From an uncultured Gemmatimonadales bacterium (GTDB lineage: Bacteria > Gemmatimonadota > Gemmatimonadetes > Gemmatimonadales > GWC2-71-9): a stretch of DNA of 64,000 nt. A model generated the notes under the pieces. It saw nothing but the letters and a program-made list of their open reading frames with translations. It was not told where the DNA came from and ran no database searches. The position numbers and the translations under genes were made by a program. Location: assembly GCA_963828735.1 (NCBI GenBank), contig CAWHFW010000005.1, positions 2,496,001 to 2,560,000 on the forward strand, given 5' to 3'. Positions 52 through 42,762 of the stretch are shown here, one piece after another (positions within the stretch are counted from its first letter, which is position 1; the number at the start of each line of letters is the position of its first letter).

Positions 52-244
52 CGGCAAGGTCCGACACTTGAGCAAGTAAAGCACGGGCAAGAGTCCGGCA
101 TCAAATCCAGCAACTCCGCATCGGGTGACACGAGCTCGGTGAAGGGTGCAAATTGCCGGAGTTCGGGCGGTACAACGGCCCCTCTGGATCAGGAGAGTCC
201 TGGTTCACCTGCGGTGGCCTTCGGCTCGAGCCCAGGAGGGGCAA
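52..244 (+). repeat. tRNA-Gln(CUG) 3'-half att-like repeat, copy 1 (leader + tRNA fragment with 21-nt T-loop insert)
   Basis: CTCTGGA at 182-188, TCAGG, CCTGG..CCAGG T-stem, AGGGGCAA at 237-244; insert at 206-226; leader similar to the other copies. Confidence 0.9.
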
Positions 245-248
245 CTGA

Positions 249-280
249 AAGCGCGATGGCTGCTGGCAGCCATCGCGCTT
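249..280. terminator. Terminator-like hairpin after repeat copy 1
   Basis: AAGCGCGATGGCTGC-TG-GCAGCCATCGCGCTT inverted repeat; related hairpins follow copies 3 and 4. Confidence 0.75.
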
Positions 281-299
281 CTCCTTGCTCACGGCCTCA

Positions 300-469
300 T
301 CCAGCGATGGCTCTGGCAGACGTTCGAACTCGGCGACCTAGCGCATCCGAGGCATATCCTTCCGCGCGGTCGCCCAGAGGCGTCTGAACGTGTGCCAGAG
401 GCTTTCTGCGGGCTTCTCCAGGCCGCCGCAACGGAACGGGGCCTCGTTGAGTTACCACACGGCCACGTG
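300..469 (-). pseudogene. Decayed tyrosine recombinase/integrase C-terminal remnant
   Basis: Minus strand reads HVAVW*LNEAPFRCGGLEKPAESLWHTFRRLWATARKDMP, then VAEFERLP; resembles the H-x-x-R box II region; contains in-frame stops. Confidence 0.55.
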
Positions 470-530
470 CCAGGCGACTGGCCCACTGTGATGCCGCCGG
501 CGCTGGGGTGCGGGAAGAGCAGGGACGGGC

Positions 531-923
531 CTAGGCTCCCGGCATGTGGTAGAAGAACTGCTCCCGGACGATCTTCCCGTCCTTCACCGTGTAGAGCGCC
601 ATCTCGCACAGCTGCATCCGTTGGCCGGATTGCTTGACGGTGAAGTCGAAGTCGAACCGCACGGCGAACTGGCCCTCGCCCACGAACGGCCCGATCGCCT
701 CGGCCTTGTGGATCTCGTTGTTCTCGACCCACCGCTCGTTCTTGCCCCGGATTACGTCGATGCCGCGCATCTCCGCGGGCTTCTGCGGGCTGTCGATGGG
801 CTCCACGCTCACAATGTCCTTCGAGTAGAGCTTCGCGACGGCGTCGAGGTACTTTCCGGCCCGGCAGAGGCTGACCAGCTCCTGGGCGACGGTGGCGCTA
901 GAGGCGGGGGCGGCGGTAGGCAT
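531..923 (-). CDS. SnoaL-like / NTF2-fold protein
   Basis: 130 aa; ends EMALYTVKDGKIVREQFFY, a typical NTF2-like C-terminal strand; AGGAG RBS. Confidence 0.8.
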   Translation of the reverse strand: MPTAAPASSATVAQELVSLCRAGKYLDAVAKLYSKDIVSVEPIDSPQKPAEMRGIDVIRGKNERWVENNEIHKAEAIGPFVGEGQFAVRFDFDFTVKQSGQRMQLCEMALYTVKDGKIVREQFFYHMPGA

Positions 924-1481: not shown

Positions 1482-4157
1482 TCACCGCGCCTCCAGTTGC
1501 GCCACCCAGATGTCGCTTTCTTGGTCTCCGATGGTGCAGTAGAACGTTCGGCCGTCGGTGCTGAAGCCGTAGCGGATATGCTGGCGGGTGGGGTCGTCGA
1601 ATCTCACCAGCAGTCGCGAAGTGCCACCCGTCACCGGTACCGACCGGATCGACGACCCGAGTGGACCCTTGGCTACATAGTAGACGGTCTTCCCGTCGGG
1701 CGACCACGCAGCGAAGAAGGCCTCTTCGCCCGTCGACGTGTTAGGCACGATCAGGCGCGAGGCGCCGGCGGGTGACATTACCTGCAGGCCCTGCGAACTG
1801 TGGAAGGCGATCAGATCCTCGGTCGGTGACCAGTGCGCGAAATCCCCTGCGACCGGGATGGTCCGCATTGCGCTCCCATCCAGTGGAACGAGAATAAACG
1901 TCGAGGCGGCAAGGTAAGTCGAAGTAGCTCCGGACTTCTTGTCGGCCGGGATGACCATTCCGACCAGCTCGTGTCCGTCTGGCGACCACGCCGGGTCGAG
2001 CTCGTGCGCCGGGCTGCTGGTACGTTGGATTACCCCGGATCCGTCGGCCGCCATCGTGTAGAGATCGCGATTCCCGGTACGTATGGAGTGGAACGCAATC
2101 TGGTGCCCGTCCGGTGACCAGGCAGGGCTGTAAGCGCCGGCCGAATCGGTGGTGAGCTGAATCGCTTCTCCTCCGGCCGCCGGCATCTTGTAGATCTGCC
2201 AACTGCCGTTGCGGTCCGAGTTGAACACCAGCCACCGCCCATCCCGGGAGACATCGACGGTTTCGATTGTCTGGTCGCCCGTCGTCACCGGCCGTGCCCC
2301 GGCGATCGACACGGCCCTCGAGGTTGGAACGGGTATGGACCAGATGTTGGAAAGCGTGCGAAAGCGCGCATAGGCGAGTCGTCGCCCGTCAACGGAGAGG
2401 CTGATCGTGTGGGCGTCGGCCCCGGTGGTGAGCCGTTCCGTCTCGCCGGCCGGCGCGCCCGATGCATCGAGGCGGACTCGGTAGACGTCTCGGCTCCCAC
2501 CCCGATCCGAGACCCAGAACAGATGCCGACCGTCTGGGGCCCACTGCGGGCTAATGTTCAGATGCTGGTCTGCGGTCACCCGGATGGCGGGACTGCCGTT
2601 CACGGGCAGCACCCAGATGGAAGAGGGGAACTCATTTCCGAAGTAGACACTGCCAAAGACGAAGTCGGGATTGTCCGCTACGCCCGCGAGGCGGGTACCA
2701 TCGGGGGACCAGGTTAGCGAGTGCACGTCGCGCACCCCGGTGAGGTGGGTGGCTGCCCCTTCCCCGATCGGTACCACCGTAACGTCACGGCCGATTCCAG
2801 TACTGTAGGCGATGCGTCGCCCGTCAGGCGACCACGCGAATCCACGGAGCCGGGTGAACGCGCTCGTGGTTGACTCCGCGAGCTGAGCCTCGAGCCGCAC
2901 CACAAGCCGTGGTTGCCCCCCGAGCGCCGGCACCACCGCGATGCCGTCTTCGCCCTGATACGCGATTCGCGACCCGTCTGGTGACCACCGAGGCCAGCGG
3001 TACCCCTGAGAGGAGTCAGAGGTCAGCGCGATGGTGCGCCCGCCACCGACCTGGCGGACGAAAATCTGCATTCGTGTAGGCGGACCCGCAGCGTACGCGA
3101 CCAGACTGCCGTCGGGTGAGAGCGCGGGATCGACCTCCAGCCCCGGATCGCGCGTGACCTGCACGGTCTGGCCAATGGTGAGTGCGGAATCGCCGTGGCC
3201 GACGCGCAGGCTGAGGAGCACGGCCGCCGCGATGGCGCCGAGGATTGCGAGGCCGGCGATCATCATCCGCCGCCGCGGCGAACCCTTCGGAATCGCGGGA
3301 GGCGGGAGTGGCTGTTGCGCCGAGAGCGCCTCGGCAAACTGGCCGACCGGGTTGAAGCGATCGGCAGGGTTCTTGGCCAGCGCACGCTCGAGGGCCGCCG
3401 CGACAATGCCCGGCACCGCGGGCCTGATCTGGGTGATGGGAGGCGGGGTCGCGGTAAGATGCTGATGAGCGATGCTCTGAACCGTGGGGCCGGAGAATGG
3501 CGGCTGACCCGCCAGCATCTCGTAGAGAACGCACCCGAGGGCATAGAGATCGGTTCGCCCGTCGACGTCCCTGTCTCCCGCGACCTGCTCCGGGCTCATG
3601 TACGCCGGCGTCCCGAGCGCGAGTCCCGTGCCGGTGAGTCTCTCGGCTCCGGTCGTGCTCACCGCTCGCGCGATGCCAAAGTCCGCCACCAGCGCGTGGC
3701 CGCTCTCGAGCAGGATGTTCTCCGGTTTGATATCGCGATGGATCACTCCGTGTCCGTGCGCGTAGCTCAGCGCGTCCGCTACCTGGCCCGCGATGCGTAG
3801 CGCGTCGTCGAGGGGAAGCTGCTTCTCGCGCTTCAGCCGTTCGCGCAGCGATTCCCCGTCGACGAAGGGCATGACGTAATAAAGGAGAGCGCCGGATGGT
3901 TCCGCCGTACGCCCCGAGTCATACAACGGGAGGATATGGGGATGGCGCAGGTTGGCGGTGGTCGCGATCTCGCGCAGGAAGCGCTCGGGTCCGAGGGCGT
4001 GAACCAGCGCGGGTCGGAGCACCTTTATGGCGACCTTGCGATCGTGCTTGAGGTCATGCGCGAGATAGACCGTCGCCATCCCGCCCGCGCCAAGCTCGCG
4101 GTCGAGGCGGTAGCGATCGGCCAGGGCGTCCTGAAGTCGCGCTTGGAGGTCGGACAA
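1482..4157 (-). CDS. Ser/Thr protein kinase with TM helix and TolB-like (PD40) beta-propeller
   Basis: GAGGMATVY, VAIK, HRDIKPEN, DFG, GTPAYMSPE; TM segment; repeated WSPDG motifs. TTG start at 4157 inferred because the longer ORF runs into repeat copy 3. Confidence 0.9.
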   Translation of the reverse strand: MSDLQARLQDALADRYRLDRELGAGGMATVYLAHDLKHDRKVAIKVLRPALVHALGPERFLREIATTANLRHPHILPLYDSGRTAEPSGALLYYVMPFVDGESLRERLKREKQLPLDDALRIAGQVADALSYAHGHGVIHRDIKPENILLESGHALVADFGIARAVSTTGAERLTGTGLALGTPAYMSPEQVAGDRDVDGRTDLYALGCVLYEMLAGQPPFSGPTVQSIAHQHLTATPPPITQIRPAVPGIVAAALERALAKNPADRFNPVGQFAEALSAQQPLPPPAIPKGSPRRRMMIAGLAILGAIAAAVLLSLRVGHGDSALTIGQTVQVTRDPGLEVDPALSPDGSLVAYAAGPPTRMQIFVRQVGGGRTIALTSDSSQGYRWPRWSPDGSRIAYQGEDGIAVVPALGGQPRLVVRLEAQLAESTTSAFTRLRGFAWSPDGRRIAYSTGIGRDVTVVPIGEGAATHLTGVRDVHSLTWSPDGTRLAGVADNPDFVFGSVYFGNEFPSSIWVLPVNGSPAIRVTADQHLNISPQWAPDGRHLFWVSDRGGSRDVYRVRLDASGAPAGETERLTTGADAHTISLSVDGRRLAYARFRTLSNIWSIPVPTSRAVSIAGARPVTTGDQTIETVDVSRDGRWLVFNSDRNGSWQIYKMPAAGGEAIQLTTDSAGAYSPAWSPDGHQIAFHSIRTGNRDLYTMAADGSGVIQRTSSPAHELDPAWSPDGHELVGMVIPADKKSGATSTYLAASTFILVPLDGSAMRTIPVAGDFAHWSPTEDLIAFHSSQGLQVMSPAGASRLIVPNTSTGEEAFFAAWSPDGKTVYYVAKGPLGSSIRSVPVTGGTSRLLVRFDDPTRQHIRYGFSTDGRTFYCTIGDQESDIWVAQLEAR

Positions 4158-4248
4158 GTTGGTCGCCAGAGGGAGAGTGCCCAAAAATGAGTTGGCGGGG
4201 ACCCGGTCGCCAGTCGGGCAGCCCTGAAGGGATCTCTTGGAAGGGACT

Positions 4249-4469
4249 CCGGCAAACTCCGGCATGTGAGCGAGTAAGGCCCGGCAATGTCCGGCATCCA
4301 AGCCGGCAAACTCTGGCAGCGGGTGGCACGAACTCGCGTAAAGGTTGCAAGTTGCTGGAATTTGACTGGTTACAACGGCCCCTCTGGATCAGGAGAGTCC
4401 TGGTTGACCTCAAAAGGTCGCCTTCGGCTCACCTGCGGTGGCCTTCGGCTGGGAGCCCAGGAGGGGCAA
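4249..4469 (+). repeat. tRNA-Gln 3'-half att-like repeat, copy 3 (45-nt insert)
   Basis: CTCTGGA 4382-4388; insert 4406-4450; AGGGGCAA 4462-4469; hairpin 4474-4507 follows. Confidence 0.9.
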
Positions 4470-4545
4470 CTCGAAGCGCGGTGGCTGCGTGGCAGCCACC
4501 GCGCTTTGCCTACTTAGCGGGCGCAGGCCGAGGCGGCGGCGACGG

Positions 4546-6333
4546 TCATCTCTGGTTTCCGACGAAGATCGCCCCGTCGAGCTTGCCCTGCATGTTGGTG
4601 AGGGGCGCGTAGTAGGTGTCGTAGCTCCGGCCGAAGATGGTGGCCTCTCCCCGATACGAGTAGTTCTGCACCAGTGCCTGATAGCTGGCCGACTCGCGAT
4701 CGAGCTTCGTGTTGAGCGCGACTTTGCCCTCGGCGGTGAGCAACGTGGTCTGGATCCGTATAAAGTCCGCGCCGTCGAACGAGAAGATCGTCGCGGTCGT
4801 CATCCGATTGCGCGCATTGAGGACGTGGATGGTCATCATGATGCTCACGACGAGCGCCACCACAAACACCACCGAGAACACGTGCAGGACGGCTTCGTAG
4901 GAGCCCGTGGCCTGATACAGGCGGGCCACCAGCTGTGGGCCGGTGATGCCGGCCAGACCCCAGGCGCTCAACACGTAGCCATGGATGGCGCCCAGCTCCT
5001 TGGTGCCGAACAGATCGCCGATATATGCCGGGAGAGTTGCGAACCCGCCGCCGTAGCAGGTCAGGATCAGGTAGAGCACGAGCTGGAACAGGATGACGCT
5101 GGTGATGTCGGGCAGCACCCAGAACGCGACGACCTCGATGATGAAGAAGGCGGTATACGTGCCCGAACGGCCCAGGTAATCGGATAGCGAGGCCCAGCCG
5201 AGGCGACCGAGGCCGTTGAAGATGGACATGAGCCCGACCACGCCAGCCGCTTGGGCGGGCGTCAGGCCGATGCTTTCCTGCGCCAGCGGGGACGCCGTGT
5301 AAATGATGCCGATGCCACACGAGATGTTGATGAACATCATGATCCAGAGGCCGTAAAACGGGGCTCGCCGGACCGCGGCGTTGGCCGTGAGCTGGGTGAG
5401 GTCGGGAATGACCTTGCGCTTGCCGGCGTCCACGTCCGCTTTCATCCTCTCCGGCATCCAGCCCGGAGGCGGGCGCTCGATGTAGCGGGCGGCCGCGAGC
5501 ATGATGACGAGGTAGGCGATCCCGGCGAAGAGGAAAGCCGCCGAGATGCCGGCCGCGATGGCGCTCCGGAAGGGCGCCGTGCCCGCCGACGCCCAGAACG
5601 GCGCCAGCCCCGGATCGGCCTGGCTGCTCTGGAGCGCGGCCAGCGTACCGGCCGCGTCCCGGGCCTGCTTCTCGGGCAGCGAAGCCAGGACCTTCTCGCT
5701 CCGTCCATCACGCACCATGCTCAAGAATTCCGGGAGCTCGATCGCCGCCGTGGACGAATCGTGGAGGTGCATGTCCTTTAGGATGGTTTTCGCGGCGTTG
5801 TAGTTCGCGACGCCGTGGCTATAGGTGGACTCGGAGAGACCAAGCTGCCCGGCGGCCACCCGGGACATGATGTAGTTGCAGACCGGACCTCCGATGGCGG
5901 CCCCGAAGCCGAAGCCCATGATAGCCAGCCCGGTGGCTAGACCCCGGCGGTCGGGAAACCACTTCACCAGGGTCGAGACCGGGGTGATGTAGCCGATGCC
6001 GAGTCCCATGCCGCCCAGGATCCCGTATCCCAGCCACAGCACCTGGATCACGCCCAGCTTCACGCCGAGGCTGGCGACCAGGAGCCCGGTACCCCAGAGG
6101 GCGGCCGCCACCGTGCCCGAGGTGCGCGGTCCCCGGCGCTCGACGAAGCGTCCCATGACGGCAGCCGACATTCCCAGGAAAAAGATGGCGAGGCTGAAGG
6201 TGATGGCCACATCGCTCTTGGTCCAGCCGAACGCATTCTCGAGTGGCAGGTTGAAGACGCTCCAGGCGTACACCGATCCGATGGAGATGTGAATGCCGAC
6301 GGCCGAGAGCGCGATGAGCCAGCGATTCTTCAC
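4546..6333 (-). CDS. OFA-family (oxalate/formate antiporter-like) MFS transporter with C-terminal Cache-like domain
   Basis: GSVYAWSVF, TLVKWFPDRRGLATG, GRLGWASLSD motifs; C-terminal ATIF..GADFIRIQTTL..YRGEATIFGRSYDTYYAPL resembles Cache domains; GTG start with GAGGAGG RBS. Confidence 0.85.
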   Translation of the reverse strand: MKNRWLIALSAVGIHISIGSVYAWSVFNLPLENAFGWTKSDVAITFSLAIFFLGMSAAVMGRFVERRGPRTSGTVAAALWGTGLLVASLGVKLGVIQVLWLGYGILGGMGLGIGYITPVSTLVKWFPDRRGLATGLAIMGFGFGAAIGGPVCNYIMSRVAAGQLGLSESTYSHGVANYNAAKTILKDMHLHDSSTAAIELPEFLSMVRDGRSEKVLASLPEKQARDAAGTLAALQSSQADPGLAPFWASAGTAPFRSAIAAGISAAFLFAGIAYLVIMLAAARYIERPPPGWMPERMKADVDAGKRKVIPDLTQLTANAAVRRAPFYGLWIMMFINISCGIGIIYTASPLAQESIGLTPAQAAGVVGLMSIFNGLGRLGWASLSDYLGRSGTYTAFFIIEVVAFWVLPDITSVILFQLVLYLILTCYGGGFATLPAYIGDLFGTKELGAIHGYVLSAWGLAGITGPQLVARLYQATGSYEAVLHVFSVVFVVALVVSIMMTIHVLNARNRMTTATIFSFDGADFIRIQTTLLTAEGKVALNTKLDRESASYQALVQNYSYRGEATIFGRSYDTYYAPLTNMQGKLDGAIFVGNQR

Positions 6334-6373
6334 GGACCCTCCTCGAGGAGTGCTCAGGATAGGCCCCCCGGGC

Positions 6374-6393
6374 TTCGAGCCCAGGAGGGGCAA
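6374..6393 (+). repeat. Partial tRNA-Gln 3' end (T-loop to discriminator)
   Basis: TTCGAGCCCAGGAGGGGCAA, matching the 3' end of the full copies. Confidence 0.8.
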
Positions 6394-7296
6394 CTCGGAA
6401 CGAGATAGGCACTTAAGGAGCTATCCCGTTTCTCTTTCGGGAAATGGCCTGTGGCTCGGCGACGGTGTGAAGCGCCTCCCCACACCCTCCCGGCAATCTT
6501 TACAAGAGAATGTGGAGAGCGATGACCCGCTTCCCGTCGAGCGGCACTTCCCGCTCGTTTCCGCTCAGGCGGCGGCGCTGAACCCGGAGAAGATGAACCG
6601 GTACGCCTGGTGTGAAGCGTCGTACTCGGTGTGGAACCTGGTCGGATGCGCGCCGGCCAGCCCCGGGACCTCGGGGATCGGGAAGTCGAACGACTTTTTC
6701 TCCATCAGCATCGCCTTGGAGACCATCGGCTCGACCGGCCTAGAGCAAGCCAAGTGCGCGGTCTAACGACAGCGCGGGCTGCGCCTTAGCGTCACAACAA
6801 GTCCGCCACGGAACGATCCTGCACCCGTCCGCCAGGGATGCGTCGTGCGAGCGCACGCCACCCCTGATGGCTGCTACTCTCGTTGTAGGAGGTGGGAATC
6901 ATTGGTCGCCGCAGACAGCGGCGGCATGGAGTATACGCAGTTGTACCAGTAGATGGGCTGAGCCCGACCGGAATGCGCCTGTCAGGAGGAGGAACTCGCG
7001 GCCACTTGAGGACCGGGCGAGCGGCTGCTCGGAGAACGGCGGCGTGCCCAGCCGGGGCTGGTGGGATCCTCGGTTCTGTGTGCCGCTTGTGTGCCAACTC
7101 GCCAAAAGGCAGGCGCAGTGGCAACGAGAGGCCATGCATTTGCAACACCGGGCACTGCGTGGTTATTCGAGCATGTAGTGCTCGTTATGCGCGTAAGGCC
7201 CCCACCCCGAGATGACGTAGTATGGACTCACCGACGACAGCCACGATGGGCAAGGACGCCGGGTGAGGCATCGTCGTCAGGGAACCCGAGTGAATC

Positions 7297-8295
7297 ATGC
7301 AGATCAGAGCATACGCGATCAGAGAGAAAGGCGGCACGGCGGAGCCCTTCCTGTATGAGAGGACTCTCGGCGGCCGTGAGGTCTTGGTAAGGATCACGCA
7401 TCGTAGCCTCGCGAGGGGCGACATCCAGTTCATCGATAATGATTGGGGTGACGCGCGGTATCCGCTGGTCCCCGGCCACGAGATCGTTGGAATCGTCGAA
7501 GAGGCCGGTTCTGAGGTCGCCGGTCTGCACACCGGCGATCGCGTTGGGATCGGGTACCAGCAGGAGGCGTGTTTCGACTGCTCCTTCTGCAAGCGGGGCG
7601 CGGAGCAACTCTGCGCCAGTCAGAAGGTCATTGCCGTCGACCGTTACGGCGGCCTGGCCGAACACATCATTGTCGATGCTCGGTTCGCCTTCCGGCTCCC
7701 GCCGCAGCTCGATTCGGCCACATCGACCCCTCTGCTCTCGTCCGGCCTGACAGTGTACGCAGGCATTCTTCGGGCCGGACTGGCCGACGGTTGTCCAGTG
7801 GCGGTGCTGGGCGCCGGAGGCCTCGGTCACCTGGCCATACAGTTCCTCCACAAGATGGGACACCGCGTGACGGCGTTTTCGCATTCGCCAGCCAAGAGAG
7901 CGCTGATTGAGCGGCTGGGAGGCGCATTCGCGGACAGCTCGGACGCGGAGCGCCTGACCGAGTACCAGGGGGAGTTTGACTTCATCCTCTCGACGCTGAA
8001 TGTCGCCTTCGACCTTGACTCCTTTGTGAGAATGCTGACGCCACAGGGTCAGCTCTGCCTGGTGGCGTCGCCGTTGAAGCAGCTATCGCTGAGCGGCGGG
8101 CTATTGAACAATTCTCGGCGATCCATCTATGGGAACTACATAGGGAGTCGTGCGGATACAACGCAGATGCTCGCGTTCTCGTCGAAGCATGGCATCGCGG
8201 CTATCGTCGATGTCATGCCGCTCGCTCGAGTGAACGAAGCCATCGAGCGGGTCAGAAGAAGAGATGTCGCGATGGGTCTCGTGCTGGAGAGCTAG
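7297..8295 (+). CDS. MDR-family NAD(P)-dependent alcohol dehydrogenase-like protein (CAD/Ahr type)
   Basis: PGHEIVG, structural Zn C-x2-C-x2-C-x7-C, GAGGLG nucleotide-binding motif. Confidence 0.85.
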   Translation: MQIRAYAIREKGGTAEPFLYERTLGGREVLVRITHRSLARGDIQFIDNDWGDARYPLVPGHEIVGIVEEAGSEVAGLHTGDRVGIGYQQEACFDCSFCKRGAEQLCASQKVIAVDRYGGLAEHIIVDARFAFRLPPQLDSATSTPLLSSGLTVYAGILRAGLADGCPVAVLGAGGLGHLAIQFLHKMGHRVTAFSHSPAKRALIERLGGAFADSSDAERLTEYQGEFDFILSTLNVAFDLDSFVRMLTPQGQLCLVASPLKQLSLSGGLLNNSRRSIYGNYIGSRADTTQMLAFSSKHGIAAIVDVMPLARVNEAIERVRRRDVAMGLVLES

Positions 8296-8336
8296 GATCC
8301 CCGCTCGAGCGCGCAGGCTATCTCCTCATGTCGGGC

Positions 8337-8390
8337 TTTTCTATCTGCGGGGTTGTGTGAGTAGTCTGTGAGTAATATTTGTGACCTCAC
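8337..8390 (+). repeat. Orphan right-flank motif with TGTGAG direct repeats
   Basis: TATCTGCGGGGTTGTGTGAGTAGTCTGTGAG.. matches the flank downstream of copy 4 (11066-11117). Confidence 0.6.
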
Positions 8391-8543
8391 GCCGGCGCTC
8401 CGCCGCCGAGCTTGGAACAGTTCGCGGACCGCCTCCCGGGTTGTCCCCGGGAGGCGGGAGATGAACAGAAGGGCACCGCCAAGACGTGGTAGCCTCGATG
8501 AAACGTATACAGTCCCGCTACGTGCAGCAGCCAAGATACTCGA

Positions 8544-9065
8544 CTACTTCCGACCAACTACCGAGCAACGATACACCTCATCCGTCGAGACGATCGTGAT
8601 CTCGGGGCTCGGGCCGGCCGCGGCCGCGAGGACCTCCTCATCCGAGGTGAACTGGTGGGGCGTGAAACCCGGGTTGAAGACGATGAGGTTCTGGTGCCAC
8701 AGGGGATTGAATCCGTCGCCCTGGATGGCATCGATGACAGAGATGAAGTCCTGCTCCTCGTCCAGATCGTTGGAGGCATAGATCTGATTGATGCTCCCGT
8801 TGTGCGCGATGGTCGCGGCAGATGCATCCTCCGGCAGCTCCTTCATGTTGACGGTGAACAGCTCGCCATCGTAGTACGCCGGCCTCTGGCCCGCCGCGCC
8901 GTTAGTGCTCCGCGCGGCCGCGAGCTCTCCTGCCGGCTGGACCGCAGGGTTCGTCCCAGACTGACCCGTCATGGGGGCCGTAACGTCGGACTGGCATGCG
9001 GTCCAAAGGGCCGACAACGCGACCAGGGCGGCCCGGGCGCGGGCCGAGTTCCAAGCGCTGCTCAT
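8544..9065 (-). CDS. Putative lipoprotein, likely target of the adjacent ECF sigma
   Basis: AAGGAG RBS; lipobox-like LWTAC; conserved-looking domain AYYDGELFTVN..DGFNPLW. Confidence 0.7.
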   Translation of the reverse strand: MSSAWNSARARAALVALSALWTACQSDVTAPMTGQSGTNPAVQPAGELAAARSTNGAAGQRPAYYDGELFTVNMKELPEDASAATIAHNGSINQIYASNDLDEEQDFISVIDAIQGDGFNPLWHQNLIVFNPGFTPHQFTSDEEVLAAAAGPSPEITIVSTDEVYRCSVVGRK

Positions 9066-9149
9066 ATCGCTGCTCCTTCGGTGTGTGCAGTATGTGTGTT
9101 CTGCCTGCGCGCTCGGCATGGGCGTTCCCATGCCGAGGCGTTGTCTAGG

Positions 9150-9178
9150 CAGACGGCACAGACGCGAGGAGTATTCCC
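9150..9178 (-). promoter_or_regulatory. ECF sigma promoter GGGAATA-N16-CGTCTG
   Basis: Same motif and spacing as 10691-10719. Confidence 0.65.
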
Positions 9179-9179
9179 G

Positions 9180-10043
9180 TCACATGCGCATGGCGGCGAG
9201 TTCGGCGGCGGTGAATTCACCCACGAGGAAGGAGCCGTTGTCGCGGCCCGGCCAGCCAACGGCGTGGATCTTCCCCTCGCCTGCGGCATAGAGACCCGAC
9301 GTGGCGATCGCCTCGCGCACCCGGGGCGGTCGGAAGAACACGTGTTCGGGCACGACATACTGGACGACCAGACGGTCATGGCAGCGATAGGCGAGAACCG
9401 CGGCGGGCACGCCGTCGATCGTCGTGGTCCAGGCTCCGATCAACCGCATGTGCGGGGCCTTGAGTGCCGGGACCGAGAAGGGCACCTGTGACTCGACCGC
9501 TGCCAGCTCCGGCCCTTGCGGCAGCGCGGACTTGGCGACCCGGCGAAAGTCATGCAGCGCCGCATCCGCGATGGGCTCGGGGACGCTGTCGATAGAGACC
9601 GAGACCAGGGGACCCATGGACATGCCCCCCATCCCCGAGCCAGCCTGCCCCCGAGGGCCCAGAGCCCACAGCGCGGCGAGGCTCGCCGCGATCAGCCAGC
9701 CGCCCCAGGTAACCAACGGGTGCCGACGCATCGAACCCTTCGACGGCCCGGCACTTGGCATTCGCGGCGATCGCTCCGACGCCTCGCTCCCCAGGCGATT
9801 GACGTGATCCTTGAGGCGATCCAAAGTTTCCGATGGCTCCTGGCAGCTCTTCTCAGCGCGCAGTCTGTGCTTAAGCGCGGTCTGCACCCGAAGCTCCTGC
9901 ACGCACTGAGGACACTCGGCCACGTGGGCGTCCACCTCGCGCCGACCTTCGGGCGGGAGCTCGTCGTCCGCATAGGCGCCGAGTAGCGGCACTAGCTGCT
10001 CGTGCCGGCGAGCAAGCGGAGTTCGCTCGGCAGAGTCGCTCAT
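9180..10043 (-). CDS. Zinc-binding (zf-HC2/ZAS) transmembrane anti-sigma factor
   Basis: HVAECPQC (HxxxCxxC), one TM helix; ATGA overlap with the sigma gene. Confidence 0.85.
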   Translation of the reverse strand: MSDSAERTPLARRHEQLVPLLGAYADDELPPEGRREVDAHVAECPQCVQELRVQTALKHRLRAEKSCQEPSETLDRLKDHVNRLGSEASERSPRMPSAGPSKGSMRRHPLVTWGGWLIAASLAALWALGPRGQAGSGMGGMSMGPLVSVSIDSVPEPIADAALHDFRRVAKSALPQGPELAAVESQVPFSVPALKAPHMRLIGAWTTTIDGVPAAVLAYRCHDRLVVQYVVPEHVFFRPPRVREAIATSGLYAAGEGKIHAVGWPGRDNGSFLVGEFTAAELAAMRM

Positions 10044-10678
10044 GCGCGCCTCACGTGTAGTTGGGCAGTCGGGTTCCCCCGCGACGGGGCGAGATCGGAC
10101 AGGCTCTCGTTCATCAGAATGAGCGCGGCCAGCAGCTTCCGACCGCGATAAATCCGGCTCATGACCGTCCCGAGCGGCACCCCGGTGGCGTTCGCGATAT
10201 CGACGTATCGAAAGCCTTCTAGGTCATGTAGTTCGATAGCCAAGGCGAACTCCTCCGGCAGCATCCGTAGGAGTTCGTGGATCCGCTCCGTGGATGCGGA
10301 GGCGATGAGATCCTCGAGCGGTCCGGCCCCCTGATCTTGCGCGGTGTCGTCCGCCGATTCCAGGGTGAGCGTGGGGGCGAGCTGCTCGCGCCGCGTCTGC
10401 TTCTCGAAATGGTCGCTCAGGGAGGAGCGAAGAATGCGATAGAGCCACGGCAGGACCAGCGCATCTTCGCGCAGGTCGTCGAACGCCACCCAGGCGCGCG
10501 TGCAGGCCTCCTGCACCACATCCTCGGCGTCTGTGGGGTTCCGAAGCCGCCGGCCTGCGAAGCGCAAGAGGCGGGCGAGATGGGGCTGGACAAGAGCCTG
10601 AAAGCGCGCCTGACTGGCAATCGGTACGGCATCCGCTTGGCCCAAGCTCGCCCCCACCTGCACAGTCGATAGGATCAT
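10040..10678 (-). CDS. ECF RNA polymerase sigma-70 factor
   Basis: DAEDVVQE, WLYRI, region-4 IANATGVPLGTVMSRIYRGR. Confidence 0.92.
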   Translation of the reverse strand: MILSTVQVGASLGQADAVPIASQARFQALVQPHLARLLRFAGRRLRNPTDAEDVVQEACTRAWVAFDDLREDALVLPWLYRILRSSLSDHFEKQTRREQLAPTLTLESADDTAQDQGAGPLEDLIASASTERIHELLRMLPEEFALAIELHDLEGFRYVDIANATGVPLGTVMSRIYRGRKLLAALILMNESLSDLAPSRGNPTAQLHVRRA

Positions 10679-10719: not shown

Positions 10720-10810
10720 GGGCCCGTCACCCGTGAGCCGGTAACGCCTGTGGGAAAGGAGAATGGGCCGGAGACTCTGGAGCGCTTTGGGATGCGCGTG
10801 TAGGACCTCC

Positions 10811-11025
10811 ACAAGTCCGAGCATTTGTGAGAGTAGAGTACGGCAAAGTCCGGCATGAAACCCAGCAAACCCCAGCATCGGGTGGCACGAACTCGCGTAA
10901 ATGGTGGCAAGTTGCCGGAATTGGGGTGGTTCCAGCGGCCCCTCTGGATCAGGAGAGTCCTGGTTGACCTCAAAAGGTCGCCGGCTCACCTCCGGTGGCC
11001 TTCGGCTCGAGCCCAGGAGGGGCAA
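10811..11025 (+). repeat. tRNA-Gln 3'-half att-like repeat, copy 4 (two-unit insert, first UUCG hairpin missing TTC)
   Basis: CTCTGGA 10942-10948; AGGGGCAA 11018-11025; hairpin then TGTGAG repeats at 11081, 11092 and 11104. Confidence 0.9.
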
Positions 11026-14630: not shown

Positions 14631-14822
14631 AGGATGGCAAAGTCCGGCATCGAAGCCAGTGAACCCCAGCGGCGGGCGACACGAACTCGTGTCAATGGTT
14701 GCCAGTTGCTGGAACGCGGATAGTAATTCTGGCCCCTCTGGATCAGGAGAGTTCTGGTTGACCTCAATAGGTCGCCTTCGGCTCACCTCTGGTGGCCTTC
14801 GGCTCCAGCCCAGAAGGGGCAA
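14604..14822 (+). repeat. tRNA-Gln 3'-half att-like repeat, copy 6 (45-nt insert)
   Basis: CTCTGGA 14736-14742; T-stem TCTGG/CCAGA is a compensatory change; ends AGGGGCAA at 14822. Confidence 0.9.
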
Positions 14823-14951
14823 TGAAGTCCGCAACGGCTTGCTGTTGCCGGGCTTCGTCTATTTATCCACCTGCCGTAGGGGCTCGCGATCCGCCGGATG
14901 GGCACGATAAGCTGTCATGTACCACAAGTTCACCTTGCGAAAGGAGCTCCC

Positions 14952-18448: not shown

Positions 18449-18460
18449 TTGGACTCCGTC

Positions 18461-24544: not shown

Positions 24545-24555
24545 AGGCGGAGTCG

Positions 24556-37105: not shown

Positions 37106-37433
37106 TGTTCCGCCTCCTGTTGGAATTGCACACCACGCGGTATCGGCGGCCAGATCACGCCGGCCCGGCGCCACGAGACGATCCCGCACGCGCGGGACCT
37201 TTCGCTGGACCTGGGCTGTTGCCTGGGTAGCTTGTCTCGAGGAGGAGGGGCGCTCACCGACAGCGTTCTGGTGATCGAAACCTACGGCAGACTCAAGACC
37301 AAACGTCCCTTGGCCTAGGGAGCAAGATGATGGTGAGACGGAGGGTCAGATATTGGACCTTGGTACATGCAGCAGCTCGATTTCTCGAGCAGTGACAGCT
37401 CGGTCGTTTGCCCCACGCCCCTGCCAATTCTGC

Positions 37434-37455
37434 GGTTCGGGCCCAGGAGTGGCAA
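37434..37455 (+). repeat. Partial tRNA-Gln 3' end with uninterrupted T-loop
   Basis: GGTTCGGGCCCAGGAGTGGCAA, followed by a hairpin and a TGCCGTAA..CGCCGCAG flank like that of copy 8. Confidence 0.7.
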
Positions 37456-37734
37456 CTCGAAGGCCCGATGCTGCTTGATGGCATCGAGCCCGCGATCTTT
37501 TCTACCCGCCTGCCGTAATTTCGCCGCAGTTTCTCAACTACTATCCGCAGCCAAGCCGCTGAGTTCTCAGGCGCCTCCATCAGGCGTGGGTGTTGGTCAC
37601 CCGGGCATCGAGTCCGCGCTCTTTACGGGCAAGTGGATCGAGCCTAGGAGGCTAGAACGGTCGCGGAATGCGCGGCCGTTTCCTTTTTTGGCTTGGCGGG
37701 CCTGAGAATCGAGAGGCCGACGGCACCTGGAAAC

Positions 37735-40042: not shown

Positions 40043-40181
40043 CTACGCCTCCGCCGGGCGGCAAGGAAAGGGGAGTTCGCGAGAGGGGTACGGACAGTCT
40101 AGTGGCGGTTCCGCAAGAACCGTCAAAGTTTCGATGAAATCTCCTTTACACCTGCCGGCTTGGAGCCGAACGAGCATCGAC

Positions 40182-42098
40182 GTGACCGGAAATGCCATCG
40201 GGGACTACGCCGCCATCGGCGATGGTGGATCGGCCGCTCTCGTCGGACGGGACGGCTCGATCGATTGGCTGTGCTGGCCGCGGTTCGACAGCCCGTCCAT
40301 CTTCGGTGCCCTCCTCGACCCGTCAGCCGGGCGATGGCGTATCGCGCCGGTCGCGCCTTTCCGGACTGAACGACACTACATCAAAGACACCAACGTGCTC
40401 CAGACGCGGTTCGATACCGGCGCGGGCATGCTCGTTCTCACCGACCTCATGCCCGTCGCCTCGGAGGAAGAGAAGGCGCGCTTCCTGGTGCCGGAACGGG
40501 AGATCCTCCGGCAGGTGGAGTGCGAGCGGGGCGAGGTGGAGATCGAATGGTCGTTCGAACCTCGTCCCGGGTACGGACTCCGGCCGGTCAGCATTCGCCA
40601 GGCCGGACAGCTGGGAATGCGCGTGCAGACCGATGCAGGCCTGCTCTCGTTGCGCACCGACCTGCCGCTCGATATTCGTGCGGACGGAAGAGCAGGGGGA
40701 CGCGCTCGTCTCTCGGCGGGAAACGCGGCCCATGCCTCATTGACGTTCGCGGCCGACGGGCCGGCGGTGCTGCCGCCGTTAGGCGAGTGGTCCCGGACCG
40801 CCCTCGCGCGCACGGTGGACTGGTGGCGGACGTGGACCTCGCGAGTCCGCTACGACGGCCCCTGCCGGGAGACCGTCGTTCGGAGCGCGCTCGCCCTCCG
40901 GCTGATGGTCTACGCCCCTTCGGGTGCGGTCGTCGCCGCACCGACCACCTCGCTCCCCGAGCGGATCGGCGGGTCGCTCAACTGGGATTATCGGTTCTGC
41001 TGGCTGCGCGATGCTTCCCTCACGGTTCGCGCGCTCGCCGGCCTCGGCTTCGGCGACGAGGCCCACGCCTTCGTGAACTGGCTGTTGCACGCCACCCGAT
41101 TGACTCAGCCCGAGCTGCGTGTGCTCTACGACGTGCACGGCAACAAGCCGCCCGGCGAGCGCACCCTGGATCGCCTGGCCGGTCACCGGGGATCGCGCCC
41201 GGTCCGGACCGGCAACCTGGCCGACGCGCAGCGGCAGCTCGATGTGTACGGCGAGGTGATCGATGCGGTGACCAACTTCGTACGGGAGGGAGGCACCCTC
41301 GACCGCGAGACCGAGGGAGTGCTGCGCGCCTGGGGCGAATACGTCTGTCGCCACTGGGACGAGCCGGACGAAGGCATCTGGGAGCCGCGGACCGGCCGGA
41401 CGAACCACACGCATTCGCGGGTGCTTTGCTGGGTGGCGCTCGACCGCCTGCTGCACCTTCACGCGCAGGATCACGTGCGCTGGGCACCCGCCGCCAAGTT
41501 TGAGGAGAACCGCGAAGCCATTCGCCGCCAAGTGGAAAGCCGGGCGTGGAATCCGGGGCTGGGGAGCTACGTCGCCGAGCTCGACGGCGACCGCGTGGAC
41601 GCTACGCTGCTGCTCCTGGCATGGTACGGATTCGAGCCCGCCGAGTCCGAGCGGATGCGGGGAACCTACCAGCGGATTCGAGAGCGGCTCGGCGGGGGGG
41701 ACGGGAACTCGCTGCTCTATCGCTATCGCAGCGAGCCATCGCTGCACTCGGAGGTTGTCGCCGGCGGGGAGGGGCAACCTGACTCGCCGGGCGAGGGTGC
41801 GTTCGGCATCTGCAGCTTCTGGGGTGCGGAGTACCTGGCACTGGGCGGGGGGACGGTGCAGGAGGCCCGCGAGCTGTTCGAGAGGCTCTGCGGCTACGCG
41901 AACGATGTGGGACTCTTCGCCGAGGAGATCGACCCCGCCACCGGTGCGGCGCTTGGCAACTTCCCCCAGGCGTTCACCCACGTGGGCCTGATCAATGCGG
42001 CCATATCGCTCGCCCGCCGGCTCGAGGGCGAGGCGCCGATCGAGCGGCACGTGCCACCGCGGCAGGAGGCGTCGGAGACGAACCAGGTGCGAGTATGA
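40182..42098 (+). CDS. Glycoside hydrolase family 15 (trehalase/glucoamylase-like)
   Basis: IGDYAAIGD, AAPTTSLPE, NWDYRFCWLRD, QLDVYGE, GNFPQAFTH; start could be 40134. Confidence 0.93.
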   Translation: MTGNAIGDYAAIGDGGSAALVGRDGSIDWLCWPRFDSPSIFGALLDPSAGRWRIAPVAPFRTERHYIKDTNVLQTRFDTGAGMLVLTDLMPVASEEEKARFLVPEREILRQVECERGEVEIEWSFEPRPGYGLRPVSIRQAGQLGMRVQTDAGLLSLRTDLPLDIRADGRAGGRARLSAGNAAHASLTFAADGPAVLPPLGEWSRTALARTVDWWRTWTSRVRYDGPCRETVVRSALALRLMVYAPSGAVVAAPTTSLPERIGGSLNWDYRFCWLRDASLTVRALAGLGFGDEAHAFVNWLLHATRLTQPELRVLYDVHGNKPPGERTLDRLAGHRGSRPVRTGNLADAQRQLDVYGEVIDAVTNFVREGGTLDRETEGVLRAWGEYVCRHWDEPDEGIWEPRTGRTNHTHSRVLCWVALDRLLHLHAQDHVRWAPAAKFEENREAIRRQVESRAWNPGLGSYVAELDGDRVDATLLLLAWYGFEPAESERMRGTYQRIRERLGGGDGNSLLYRYRSEPSLHSEVVAGGEGQPDSPGEGAFGICSFWGAEYLALGGGTVQEARELFERLCGYANDVGLFAEEIDPATGAALGNFPQAFTHVGLINAAISLARRLEGEAPIERHVPPRQEASETNQVRV

Positions 42099-42577
42099 AC
42101 TGGAGGGACTGGTTGCTGTGGAGCTTCGTGGCCACGCTGGCGCTCACCTCGGTGATGGCCGGGAGCCAGGGTCTCCGCCTCACGCGGATGAATCTCCCCT
42201 ACATGCTGGGCTCGATATTCACCCCCAACCGAGACCGGGCCAAGGTGATCGGCTTCTGCGTCCATATGTTGGACGGGTGGATCTTCTCGCTGGCTTATGT
42301 CGCCGCGTTCAACGCCTGGGGGCGCGCAACCTGGTGGGCGGGCGCGGCCATCGGACTGGTCCAGGCGGTCTTTGTGCTGACCGTGGTGATGAGCCTGTTA
42401 CCGAGCTTTCACCCGCGCATGGCCAGCGAGCAGAAAGGGCCTACCGTCACCCGTCAGCTCGAGCCACCCGGGTTCCTGGCACTCAACTATGGCTACCAGA
42501 CGCCGGTCTCCGTGCTGATCGCGCATCTGATCTATGGTGGCATTCTGGGAGCGTTCTACTCGGTGGCGGGGAGGTGA
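42095..42577 (+). CDS. Four-TM membrane protein coupled to the GH15 gene
   Basis: ATGA overlap; hydrophobic helices. Confidence 0.75.
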   Translation: MNWRDWLLWSFVATLALTSVMAGSQGLRLTRMNLPYMLGSIFTPNRDRAKVIGFCVHMLDGWIFSLAYVAAFNAWGRATWWAGAAIGLVQAVFVLTVVMSLLPSFHPRMASEQKGPTVTRQLEPPGFLALNYGYQTPVSVLIAHLIYGGILGAFYSVAGR

Positions 42578-42684
42578 AGCGCTTCAAGCGGGCGCGCCTG
42601 CTGACACGAGCTCTTACCAACCTGCCTTGGGGTAGAGCGACGGGCTAGGTGGACGGCGCCGGAGGTTCGGGGCAGCCACATCCC

Positions 42685-42762
42685 GGCAGCGGGTGGCGCG
42701 AACTCACTCAAATCGTTGTAGGCCGCTGGAGTTCTGGTGCCTACAGCGACCCCTATGGATCA
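42685..42762 (+). repeat. Degenerate leader + anticodon-loop fragment of the att-like repeat
   Basis: GGCAGCGGGTGGCGCGAACTC..CTGGAGTT..TACAGCGACCCCTATGGATCA; the match ends in the anticodon stem. Confidence 0.7.

What the first reader, a model, noticed from the sequence alone, without database searches (positions are those of the whole stretch)
52..42762. Integron-like array of small integrase-less gene cassettes delimited by tRNA-Gln(CUG)-derived att sites
Seen: 8 near-complete direct repeats (anticodon-loop cores at 182, 1374, 4382, 10942, 12740, 14736, 21803, 24583) plus partial copies (6374, 18430, 25974, 27264, 37434, 42685), all on the + strand. Each near-complete copy is a conserved leader, then a tRNA 3' half whose tRNA identity begins exactly at the 7-nt anticodon loop (the 5' stem CCTGA is absent), then a terminator-like hairpin. 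In the first 27 kb the blocks between sites are only ~1-5 kb, carry unrelated genes, and none has an intact integrase. Established: tyrosine integrases can cross over in the tRNA anticodon loop and displace the 3' half as attR. Inference: this is a serially loaded platform of non-autonomous mini-elements mobilised in trans, functionally like an integron but using tRNA-derived sites. The intact tRNA-Gln, and possibly the integrase, should lie left of position 1.
Basis: partly seen in the sequence, partly recalled or inferred. Interest (0 to 1): 0.92.

Follow-up and report, generated by a model that had tools for sequence, protein, structure and literature searches.

The report
Integrase-less gene cassettes stacked at tRNA-Gln
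Behind the only tRNA-Gln(CUG) gene of an uncultured soil Gemmatimonadales bacterium lies a 107-kb stack of some twenty small gene units, each bounded by a recombination arm plus a copy of the tRNA's second half; almost none has a recombinase, yet the same units occur nearly identical in distantly related species, so they look like mobile cassettes moved by a borrowed enzyme.

Summary
In detail: all 14 sites named are real, all on the + strand. The predicted intact tRNA-Gln(CUG) exists, in the same orientation, 38 kb left of the window. The window holds the distal two thirds of a 107-kb array.

Each junction is a ~135-nt arm with phased GCAAAsT repeats, then tRNA sequence from the anticodon loop to the 3' end, then its own terminator. 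No intact integrase or excisionase lies in the array. Seven short 3' remnants of a tyrosine-integrase gene do; that family is intact right behind tRNA-Gln in one relative.

The arm occurs in 60 of 103 genomes of the genus. Single integrase-less units are 95-99% identical between species whose core DNA is 68-85% identical. They sit at different ranks and are bounded core to core. In 13 of 15 cases the unit next to the tRNA has no integrase.

Best reading (0.6): tandem accretion of CIME-like cassettes mobilised in trans. This kind is known (Dehalococcoides ssrA islands, CIMEs, tycheposon islands) but here it is unusually minimal and large. The integron likeness is only by analogy.

An unexplained extra: covarying hairpin modules sit in the T-loops of displaced tRNA halves.

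The scan noted similar arrays before in other genomes (13 notes).

The parts
46..298 (+). Junction 1: arm (46-181), core CTCTGGA at 182, tRNA-Gln 3' half with a 21-nt T-loop insert, terminator hairpin
350..436 (-). 3' remnant of a tyrosine-integrase gene (family profile positions 350-378), just right of junction 1
   Evidence: E 3e-8
531..923 (-). Cargo of the 1.2-kb unit 182-1374: SnoaL-like protein, 130 aa
1237..1468 (+). Junction 2 (core at 1374, 21-nt T-loop insert, type-C terminator)
1482..4301 (-). Cargo of unit 1374-4382: Ser/Thr kinase with PD40 propeller, 939 aa. The whole unit is 95.8% identical to the first unit behind tRNA-Gln in G104, 94.9% to G088 and 93% to G002
4245..4522 (+). 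Junction 3 (core at 4382, 46-nt T-loop insert made of two modules)
4546..6393 (-). Cargo: MFS transporter fused to a Cache domain, 615 aa. The unit is 97.8% identical to G109 and 92% to G064
6372..6436 (+). Degenerate junction: only the T-loop 3' part, the acceptor strand and the terminator remain
7297..10678 (.). Cargo: Zn-ADH (7297-8295, +; 96-97% identical in G105, G112 and G113), an ORF without a Pfam match, an anti-sigma zf-HC2 protein and an ECF sigma factor (-)
10803..11076 (+). Junction 4 (core at 10942, 42-nt insert)
11646..12473 (-). Cargo of the 1.8-kb unit: Ser/Thr kinase, 275 aa
12601..12860 (+). Junction 5 (core at 12740, 45-nt insert)
14598..14875 (+). Junction 6 (core at 14736, 45-nt insert)
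15497..15550 (-). Short integrase 3' remnant
   Evidence: E 8e-5
18429..18454 (+). Degenerate junction (TCGAGCCCAGGAGGGGCAAT) in front of the YCII unit. The YCII gene (18461-18892, -) is 93-96% identical in G007, G094, G100, G101, G105, G106 and G113
21666..21939 (+). Junction 7 (core at 21803, 45-nt insert). It is followed by a peroxiredoxin gene (22030-22695, -) and a BTAD/TPR regulator gene (22796-24544, +)
24439..24721 (+). Junction 8 (core at 24583, 45-nt insert; only the core-proximal ~35 nt of the arm are kept)
25977..26052 (+). Arm fragment (5' part only)
27264..27331 (+). Weak partial copy of the 3' half with terminator
   Evidence: E 0.04
37431..37489 (+). Partial copy of the 3' half with terminator. 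It is followed by CTACCCGCCTGCCGTAA, which resembles the integrase-3'-end sequence seen behind type-B terminators
42677..42762 (+). Arm fragment with a degenerate core (CCCCTATGGATCA)

Best explanation
The window is the distal part of a ~107-kb integration hotspot behind the genome's only canonical tRNA-Gln(CUG) gene.

Elements of one family carry an attachment site with three parts:
- a ~135-bp arm holding four helically phased GCAAAsT-type repeats;
- a block identical to the tRNA from the anticodon loop to the 3' end;
- their own terminator.

A tyrosine integrase recombines this site with the tRNA gene or with an earlier junction. Each insertion renews the tRNA's second half and pushes the old half, and all earlier units, outward. 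That produces the observed series arm / core / 3' half / terminator / cargo.

Most units today are 1-7-kb cargo-only derivatives that keep both att ends but no integrase (CIME-like). They are inferred to be excised and inserted by an integrase supplied in trans, from a full element of the family such as the one behind tRNA-Gln in relative G090. They are carried between cells by an unknown vehicle.

Shown: the anatomy, the anchoring at the tRNA, the integrase remnants, genus-wide spread, and unit-wise sharing between species with boundaries inside the tRNA-identical block.

Inferred: trans-mobilisation, arm-site function, and the direction of growth.
For: 1. An intact tRNA-Ala(CGC)-tRNA-Gln(CTG) pair sits at C5:2457616-2457781 (+). 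It is followed by 19 further profile hits, all on the + strand, up to C5:2564613. The same tRNA pair starts the arrays in G007, G087, G113, G090, G101, G108, G015 and others.

2. tRNA identity starts exactly at CTCTGGA and runs to GGGGCAA. Each copy has its own hairpin with a T-run.

3. The consensus of 200 copies shows conserved blocks with GCAAAsT at profile positions about 9, 41, 64 and 106, giving spacings of 32, 23 and 42 nt.

4. No PF00589, PF00239 or PF12728 match lies inside the array. No mobility domain appears in the 82 of 107 ORFs that were scanned.

5. G090 has a 420-aa tyrosine recombinase, with RHRY-type residues readable in the sequence, directly behind tRNA-Gln. Two HTH_17 genes follow it. 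The island is 12.4 kb and ends in core plus 3' half.

6. A profile of that integrase family finds seven 3' remnants in the G000 array. All are on the minus strand and lie just right of a junction terminator. The best is E 1e-38 with 49% identity. Relatives show the same pattern.

7. The arm is found in 60 of 103 genomes of the genus and in 0 of 16 genomes of other genera of the order.

8. Unit-wise sharing:
- TetR/SDR unit, 99.15% over 2716 nt between G000 (third unit) and G113 (first unit);
- kinase unit, 95.8% with G104 (first unit there, eleventh junction here);
- MFS unit, 97.8% with G109;
- ADH unit, 97% with G105.
Two 4-kb chromosomal control segments are 68-85% identical to the same genomes, and the upstream flank is 68-80% identical. 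Unit order differs between G000 and G113.

9. Homology starts at the core and ends within the next tRNA-identical block.

10. The tRNA-proximal unit has no integrase homolog in 13 of 15 cases, an intact one in 1 and a remnant in 1.

11. Of 54 metagenomic junctions with at least 1.3 kb of downstream sequence, none is followed by an intact integrase of the family.

12. GC3 of the tRNA-proximal cargo is 0.63-0.81, against 0.91-0.92 for the flanking genes.
Against: - No excision product, circle or empty site was seen. The only public data were short contigs.
- No intact integrase was found next to an arm of this particular family in 103 genomes or 75 metagenome contigs. The one intact integrase (G090) has different arm repeats (AAGCGTTTCT), so the cognate enzyme for the arm is not identified.
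- G000 itself has no intact integrase of the family. Its relatives at tRNA-Ile and tRNA-Leu are split over two frames, so the array may be frozen here.
- The sequence left of the core in the arm (GGCCC) does not resemble the tRNA's CCTGA, which is odd for a core-type site if crossover is in the anticodon loop.
- Boundaries inside a 41-nt perfect repeat are equally what homologous recombination would give.
- T-loop inserts follow neither neighbour, which the model does not predict.
Confidence: 0.6

Rival explanations
1. Fossil stack plus homologous recombination. Only full, integrase-bearing islands ever integrated. Their integrases and most other genes were deleted afterwards. The cross-species sharing of single units comes from uptake of foreign array DNA and double crossover in the conserved tRNA/junction repeats, with no site-specific mobilisation of integrase-less units.
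For: Integrase 3' remnants of different length and divergence lie in 7 units. The 41-nt perfect tRNA block and the 80-90% similar arms on both sides of every unit are usable homology. Unit boundaries fall inside that block. G000 has no intact integrase. Partial junctions show frequent deletions.
Against: In 13 of 15 cases the unit next to the tRNA, expected to be the newest, already has no trace of an integrase. None of 54 metagenomic junctions is followed by an intact integrase, so full elements of the arm family are rare relative to cargo-only units. The arm keeps sharply conserved, phased blocks across 200 copies, which pure homology tracts would not need. Units travel singly, core to core.
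Confidence: 0.25
2. A dedicated, integron-like capture platform. A chromosomally encoded recombinase of the host, such as a Xer-type enzyme, serves the arm-core sites. The array is then a host-controlled cassette store rather than a by-product of selfish elements.
For: G000 and G008 have only two strong PF00589 genes, of Xer-like scores, yet hold arrays. The arm is genus-specific. Hairpin modules with covarying stems sit at the sites, loosely recalling attC.
Against: No recombinase gene is linked to the locus. The genes face both ways and have no common promoter. Integrase remnants and a full integrase island tie the sites to ordinary tRNA-targeting integrases. Nothing resembling a dif or Xer site was seen at the core; this last point rests on reading the sequence and on recalled knowledge of dif.
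Confidence: 0.05
3. The repeat is a multi-copy small-RNA gene or a REP/MITE-like dispersed repeat, not a recombination site.
For: Each copy ends in a good terminator with compensatory stem changes. The T-loop modules show stem covariation. The end of the arm can pair with the acceptor strand.
Against: The copies are confined to one locus and one strand, starting at the intact tRNA. Identity to the tRNA begins at a sharp point. Unit-wise exchange is bounded by the repeat. There is no Rfam match. Predicted arm pairs show few double changes.
Confidence: 0.03

Closest known systems
ssrA genomic islands of Dehalococcoides (McMurdie et al. 2011, PMC3146451; passages read)
   Same: Many tandem islands lie within about 100 kb downstream of one small-RNA gene. 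They are delimited by direct repeats of its 3' end plus a short conserved motif. The integration module sits next to attL on the reverse strand. Fifteen islands lack an integration module, and the authors propose these as cis-mobilizable elements. Islands are shared between strains.
   Different: There the target is tmRNA, the repeat is 20 bp, the integrase is a serine recombinase, and about half of the islands keep the module. Here the target is a tRNA, the identity block is 41-45 nt with a 135-nt arm, the integrase is a tyrosine recombinase seen only as remnants, and units go down to 1.2 kb with a single gene. The T-loop hairpin modules are an added feature here.
CIMEs and tandem accretion of ICESt1/ICESt3 (Pavlovic et al. 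2004; recalled, and cited as ref. 54 in PMC3146451)
   Same: These are att-flanked units without integrase or transfer genes. They derive by deletion from full elements, sit in tandem with them, and can be mobilised by the full element's integrase.
   Different: CIMEs are known as one or two units beside an ICE at a protein-gene 3' end in Firmicutes. Here there are about 20 units and no resident full element. Mobilisation is not shown experimentally.
Tycheposon-associated genomic islands of Prochlorococcus (Hackl et al., bioRxiv 10.1101/2020.12.28.424599; passages read)
   Same: The islands lie next to tRNA genes. Partial tRNAs separate successive integrations that push older ones inward. Fragmented integrases and extra partial tRNAs are scattered in the islands. 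Cargo is adaptive.
   Different: Tycheposons are defined by an integrase plus a replication module, and the degenerate material there 'lacks clear boundaries'. Here the cargo-only units keep sharp, conserved ends and are themselves the shared entity. No replication genes were seen.
Integrons (recalled)
   Same: A one-directional stack of small, unrelated gene units separated by recombination sites, with unit-wise exchange between genomes.
   Different: This array has no intI, attI or Pc. Its sites are tRNA-derived with an arm, not attC. The genes run in both orientations and have their own terminators.
tRNA/tmRNA genomic islands as mapped by Islander/TIGER (PMC12424338; passages read)
   Same: A displaced tRNA fragment serves as the distal att site, and tandem arrays are resolved.
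   Different: [quoted passage not shown] Units like these are therefore not reported by design.

Membership tests
Integron | An intI tyrosine recombinase gene next to attI at the head of the array | tested here: not met
   Six-frame PF00589 gives no match between C5:2457709 and 2564613. The genes upstream of the tRNA are an FAD oxidoreductase and others.
Integron | attC sites: imperfect palindromes closing each cassette | tested here: not met
   The sites are an arm plus the tRNA 3' half. The small T-loop hairpins are not attC-like in sequence or position.
Integron | Mostly promoterless cassettes in one orientation behind a common promoter | tested here: not met
   Called genes lie on both strands, and each junction ends in a terminator.
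CIME / tandem accretion | The unit is flanked by att sites of an integrative element family | tested here: met
   Every unit runs from core + 3' half + terminator to arm + core. The same core is used by an integrase-bearing island in G090.
CIME / tandem accretion | Lacks integrase, excisionase and transfer genes, and derives from full elements by deletion | tested here: met
   No PF00589, PF00239 or PF12728 match in the array. Seven integrase 3' remnants were found.
CIME / tandem accretion | Can be excised or mobilised by the integrase of a related full element | not testable with these tools
   Only indirect evidence: 95-99% identity of single units between species whose core DNA is 68-85% identical.
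tRNA-targeting genomic island (Islander/TIGER sense) | An intact tRNA at one end and a displaced tRNA fragment at the other | tested here: met
tRNA-targeting genomic island (Islander/TIGER sense) | At least one integrase gene inside the island | tested here: not met
   No unit of G000 has an intact integrase. This feature is met only by the G090 island.
Tycheposon | Integrase plus a replication module (primase, helicase or polymerase) with cargo | tested here: not met
   None of these domains appears among the 82 ORFs scanned. The 25 ORFs right of window 43.4 kb were not scanned.
REP/MITE-type dispersed repeat | Scattered genome-wide in both orientations | tested here: not met
   20 of 25 hits lie in one locus, all on the + strand, and none lies on six of the seven contigs.

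The most novel reading that the evidence does not exclude
In soil Gemmatimonadales the main mobile unit at tRNA-Gln is not the integrase-bearing island. It is a 1-7-kb cargo-only cassette whose only conserved parts are a 135-bp arm and a tRNA half. This would be a tRNA-anchored, integron-like gene-capture and exchange system, working across species with an integrase borrowed in trans, and invisible to island finders that demand an integrase. On this reading, the covarying hairpin modules in the T-loops of displaced halves are selected, structure-dependent modifiers of the sites. They might lock cassettes in place, protect the tRNA gene from recombination, or act as folded sites in the manner of attC.
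Probability: 0.2. Interest if true: 0.8.

Novelty: new variant of a known kind. Interest (0 to 1): 0.6.

Why it matters
If cargo-only units with tRNA-derived ends are exchanged as such, a large share of accessory-gene flow in abundant, uncultured soil bacteria would run through a cassette system. Current island finders skip such units by design, because they require an integrase and a 2-kb minimum length (PMC12424338).

The locus offers a defined substrate pair for testing trans-mobilisation: the arm-core-half site and the tRNA-Gln gene. It also offers a candidate enzyme family.

The T-loop hairpin modules are an unexplained, testable feature. They may bear on how genomes stabilise arrays of direct repeats next to an essential gene.

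The scan has noted comparable stacks at other tRNAs in at least 13 other genomes, so the phenomenon may be general.

Tried and rejected
1. Public reads. Only short Logan contigs of four runs from four studies could be laid on window 1-20000. They show that parts of the array exist in several soil and rhizosphere data sets. The listed joints have short sides of 20-23 nt inside the shared tRNA block, except one 'goes back' joint (19059 to 1104, with 26 foreign letters) in one run. There is no verdict on circles or excision.

2. Rfam. The only match at gathering threshold is an unrelated c-di-GMP-I riboswitch. An E-value scan of one junction gave only chance hits on the terminator.

3. A third type of PF00589 gene in relatives (G017:C96, G007:C144 and C38, G009:C160, G024:C122) was fetched. 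It has no arm or tRNA-Gln nearby, so it was rejected as the partner.

4. Full-length homologs of the G090 integrase with 35-39% identity sit at other tRNAs: Ala-TGC, Pro-TGG/Arg-TCT and Gln-TTG. They belong to the same family but use other targets.

5. Is the T-loop insert inherited with the left arm or with the right cassette? With neither.

6. Is the insert a genome-wide mobile hairpin? No. It occurs only in array junctions.

7. Arm phylogeny against T-loop type or terminator type showed no clean association.

8. The leader as a structured RNA: RNAalifold finds pairs, but most double changes lie in the terminator. Not pursued further.

9. Literature. Searches for 'integrase-less' + tRNA + genomic island gave 0 papers. 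Searches for integron-like + tRNA gene + gene cassettes and for Gemmatimonadota + genomic island + integrase + tRNA gave 3 papers, seen as listings only. None describes this array. This covers the held library only.


Full report
**Observation**

There are eight near-full copies, with cores at window 182, 1374, 4382, 10942, 12740, 14736, 21803 and 24583 (E 1e-58 to 1e-86). There are six partial copies, at 6372, 18429, 25977, 27264 (weak, E 0.04), 37431 and 42677. All are on the + strand.

Each full copy has three parts:
- a ~135-nt conserved leader, called the arm below;
- CTCTGGA followed by tRNA-Gln sequence to GGGGCAA;
- a hairpin with a T-run whose stem differs between copies by compensatory changes.

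ARAGORN finds no tRNA in the window. Rfam finds only an unrelated c-di-GMP-I riboswitch.

**The array and its anchor**

The window is G000:C5:2496001-2560000. Genome-wide, 20 of 25 profile hits lie between C5:2457739 and 2564613, all on the + strand. Five lie elsewhere on C5, and none lies on the other six contigs.

The first hit is a canonical 73-nt tRNA-Gln(CTG) at C5:2457709-2457781, preceded by tRNA-Ala(CGC). It is the only canonical tRNA-Gln(CTG) in the assembly. Two other ARAGORN 'Gln-ctg' calls are 89 and 95 nt long.

Copies near the tRNA carry a perfect 3' half.

**Gene content**

I called ORFs with a simple third-position-GC rule (107 ORFs over C5:2455001-2566000) and scanned 82 of them against Pfam. 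The 25 ORFs right of window 43.4 kb were not scanned.

The units hold ordinary, unrelated cargo on both strands:
- Kelch proteins, a TetR regulator with an SDR, response regulators, cupins and SnoaL-like proteins;
- transporters, ArsA, several Ser/Thr kinases and a GH31 enzyme;
- an ECF sigma/anti-sigma pair, PP2C and peroxiredoxin.

Six-frame searches of the whole genome find no tyrosine-recombinase domain, no resolvase domain and no HTH_17 excisionase-type domain inside the array.

tRNA-proximal cargo has GC3 of 0.63-0.81, against 0.91-0.92 for the flanking genes.

**Relatives**

The closest relatives of the flanking oxidoreductase are MAGs titled 'Gemmatimonadales bacterium'.

The arm is found in 60 of 103 genomes of the genus, and in 29 of 46 high-quality ones. 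It is found in 0 of 16 genomes of other genera of the order. These tallies include four unpublished genomes (G003, G047, G083, G084); no named example below rests on them.

Arrays start at the same tRNA-Ala/tRNA-Gln pair in G007, G087, G113, G090, G101, G108, G015 and others.

With PF00589, only 1 of 20 relatives examined (G084 among them is unpublished) has a match at its array.

**The integrase**

That one relative is G090. A 420-aa tyrosine recombinase (PF00589, E 1e-10) with catalytic-type residues readable in the sequence lies on the minus strand directly behind tRNA-Gln. It is followed by two HTH_17 genes and by PLD-nuclease and methylase cargo. The 12.4-kb island ends in core plus 3' half. 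NCBIfam gives it no family at cut-off.

Its arms carry AAGCGTTTCT twice on each side, not the arm studied here.

Searching the genus with this protein, and the G000 array with a profile of five family members, shows what Pfam missed. Seven 3'-terminal integrase remnants lie in the G000 array, all on the minus strand and just right of a junction terminator:
- C5:2460207;
- C5:2465112-2465362;
- C5:2468568;
- C5:2473124-2473417 (E 1e-38, 49% identity);
- C5:2485781;
- window 350-436;
- window 15497-15550.

Relatives show the same pattern, for example G101, G108, G015 and G117.

Full-length homologs with 35-39% identity sit at other tRNAs.

So the units descend from integrase-bearing islands of one family, with the integrase gene next to attL.

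**Are cargo-only units mobile?**

Comparison of 31 array stretches (117 core matches) with the G000 array shows single units shared at high identity:

| Unit | G000 position | Match | Identity |
|---|---|---|---|
| TetR/SDR | C5:2462331-2465044, third unit | G113, first unit behind the tRNA | 99.15% over 2716 nt |
| Kinase-PD40 | window 1415-4405 | G104, first unit there | 95.8% |
| Kinase-PD40 | same | G088 | 94.9% |
| Kinase-PD40 | same | G002 | 93% |
| MFS | window 4453-6374 | G109 | 97.8% |
| MFS | same | G064 | 92% |
| ADH | window 7278-8304 | G105, G112, G113 | 96-97% |
| YCII | window 18451-18998 | seven genomes | 93-96% |

None of the TetR/SDR, kinase or MFS units has an integrase remnant.

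Two 4-kb chromosomal control segments of G000 are 68-85% identical to G113, G104, G109, G105 and G088. The flank upstream of the tRNA is 68-80% identical.

Unit order differs between genomes. In G113 it is TetR, kinase h037, YCII, h056, ADH. In G000 it is TetR, h037, ADH, h056, YCII.

Homology begins exactly at CTCTGGA: a tRNA 5' half lies to the left in G113 or G104, an arm in G000. It then runs through the unit's own arm and ends inside the next tRNA-identical block.

The unit next to the tRNA lacks any integrase homolog in 13 of 15 cases, has an intact one in 1 (G090) and a remnant in 1 (G101).

In metagenome contigs found with an arm pattern, 125 stretches matched and 75 loci (237 kb) were examined. 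Of their junctions, 54 have at least 1.3 kb of downstream sequence. None is followed by an intact integrase of the family, and three contigs show remnants.

**Interpretation**

These results fit tandem accretion at a tRNA gene by a tyrosine-integrase family, with cargo-only deletion derivatives that keep both att ends (CIME-like) and are still, or were recently, moved as units.

The arm's four GCAAAsT-type repeats, spaced 32, 23 and 42 nt in the 200-copy consensus, look like phased protein-binding sites. This is inference.

Trans-mobilisation is also inferred. No circle or empty site was seen, and the available public data are short contigs.

The main rival is homologous recombination in the 41-nt perfect block and the similar arms after DNA uptake. 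It would give the same boundaries and cannot be excluded.

The crossover point is also open. tRNA identity starting at the anticodon loop suggests the loop. In the other arm families the sequence left of the core ends in CCGA or GGA, resembling the tRNA's CCTGA. In the arm family studied here, however, the sequence left of the core (GGCCC) does not resemble CCTGA. The only full inverted repeat inside the site is the T-arm.

**Unexplained feature**

In 46 of 180 junction copies the T-loop of the displaced half holds one to three tandem modules of 21-24 nt. Each module is a 4-bp hairpin followed by a GCC-TKC-GGC hairpin.

The first stem occurs as CACC/GGTG (26 times), GACC/GGTC (12), GGGC/GCCC (8) and GGCC/GGCC (7). 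It is fully paired in 56 of 61 modules, while the loops vary.

True tRNA genes never have the modules (15 of 15).

Module types are genome-specific and follow neither the left arm nor the right cassette. The kinase unit has none in G104 and G002 but 21 nt in G000. The MFS unit has none in G109 and G064 but 46 nt in G000.

The modules occur nowhere else in the genome.

Partial junctions start exactly at the T-loop.

Short-patch gene conversion between junctions, selection to break the 41-nt repeat, or a structure-dependent role at the site are all possible. None was tested.

**Comparison with what is known**

The closest described case is the ssrA island array of Dehalococcoides. It has tandem islands within 100 kb of the gene, the integration module next to attL, and 15 islands without a module that the authors proposed as cis-mobilizable (PMC3146451, passages read).

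Tycheposon islands show successive integrations separated by partial tRNAs, together with fragmented integrases (bioRxiv 10.1101/2020.12.28.424599, passages read).

CIMEs and accretion (Pavlovic 2004) are recalled, and are cited in PMC3146451.

Islander/TIGER require an integrase and a length of at least 2 kb (PMC12424338), so such units go unreported.

Integron membership fails on intI/attI, attC and orientation.

My searches of the held library found no description of this array or of the T-loop modules. Earlier notes of this scan report comparable stacks at other tRNAs in other genomes.

**Verdict**

The finding is a real and well-delimited example of a known kind, in an unusually minimal and large form. 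It comes with good comparative evidence that cargo-only units are the exchanged entity, and with one new unexplained structural feature.

Noticed in passing
window 28696-28812 (-): A c-di-GMP-I riboswitch (Rfam RF01051, 41.8 bits, gathering score 35) lies directly upstream of an epoxide-hydrolase-like alpha/beta hydrolase gene (27386-28699, -). This is an unusual gene to be placed under c-di-GMP control.
   Followed up: no
window 35321-36133 versus 37740-39367: Segmental duplication at 93-98% identity (repeat families D7 and D9-D11). The copy at 35.3-36.1 kb appears to be a degraded duplicate of the carbonic-anhydrase / nitronate-monooxygenase-like gene pair at 37735-40042.
   Followed up: no
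G000 C5:721330-722702 and C5:517228-517393 (outside the window): Further junction copies lie away from the array. One is an inverted pair at 721-723 kb. The other is a copy on the minus strand about 230 nt behind the tRNA cluster His-Trp-Glu-Glu-Lys. These may be traces of rearrangement or of secondary insertion sites.
   Followed up: partly
G000 C5:598089-598662, C4:260847-261361, C5:755443, C5:666047, C2:281844: Split or partial tyrosine-integrase matches lie next to tRNA-Ile, tRNA-Leu(CAA), tRNA-Lys(TTT), tRNA-Asn and tRNA-Met. Several tRNA genes of this genome are therefore old integration sites.
   Followed up: no
L074 (G104:C2) positions 6719 and 16462: Two copies with the tRNA-type left side (GGCAACACGCCTGA) lie 9.7 kb apart inside one array. 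This suggests a second tRNA-Gln(CUG) gene, or its 5' part, carried within the stack.
   Followed up: no
L055 (G090:C1) 8202-9402 and L059 (G104:C1) 9955-11156: A full arm-core-Gln-half junction sits just upstream of a second tRNA-Ala(CGC) and a convergent tRNA-Arg(CCG). In G090 a weak integrase-like match lies nearby.
   Followed up: partly
junctions without the arm, e.g. C5:2492898 (3.1 kb left of the window), G113, G064, G002, G094, G112: At least two further conserved arm families use the same core. Their sequences left of the core are GGTACCGA and CCGGAGGA. So several element lineages target this tRNA.
   Followed up: partly
window 156-245 of alignment A1 (e.g. window 171-244): The last bases of the arm plus the core (GGCCCCTCTGG) can pair with CCAGGAGGGGC of the tRNA half. 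GCCCCT equals the tRNA's own 5' acceptor strand, so the junction can close into a mini-tRNA-like fold. All positions are invariant, so there is no covariation test.
   Followed up: no
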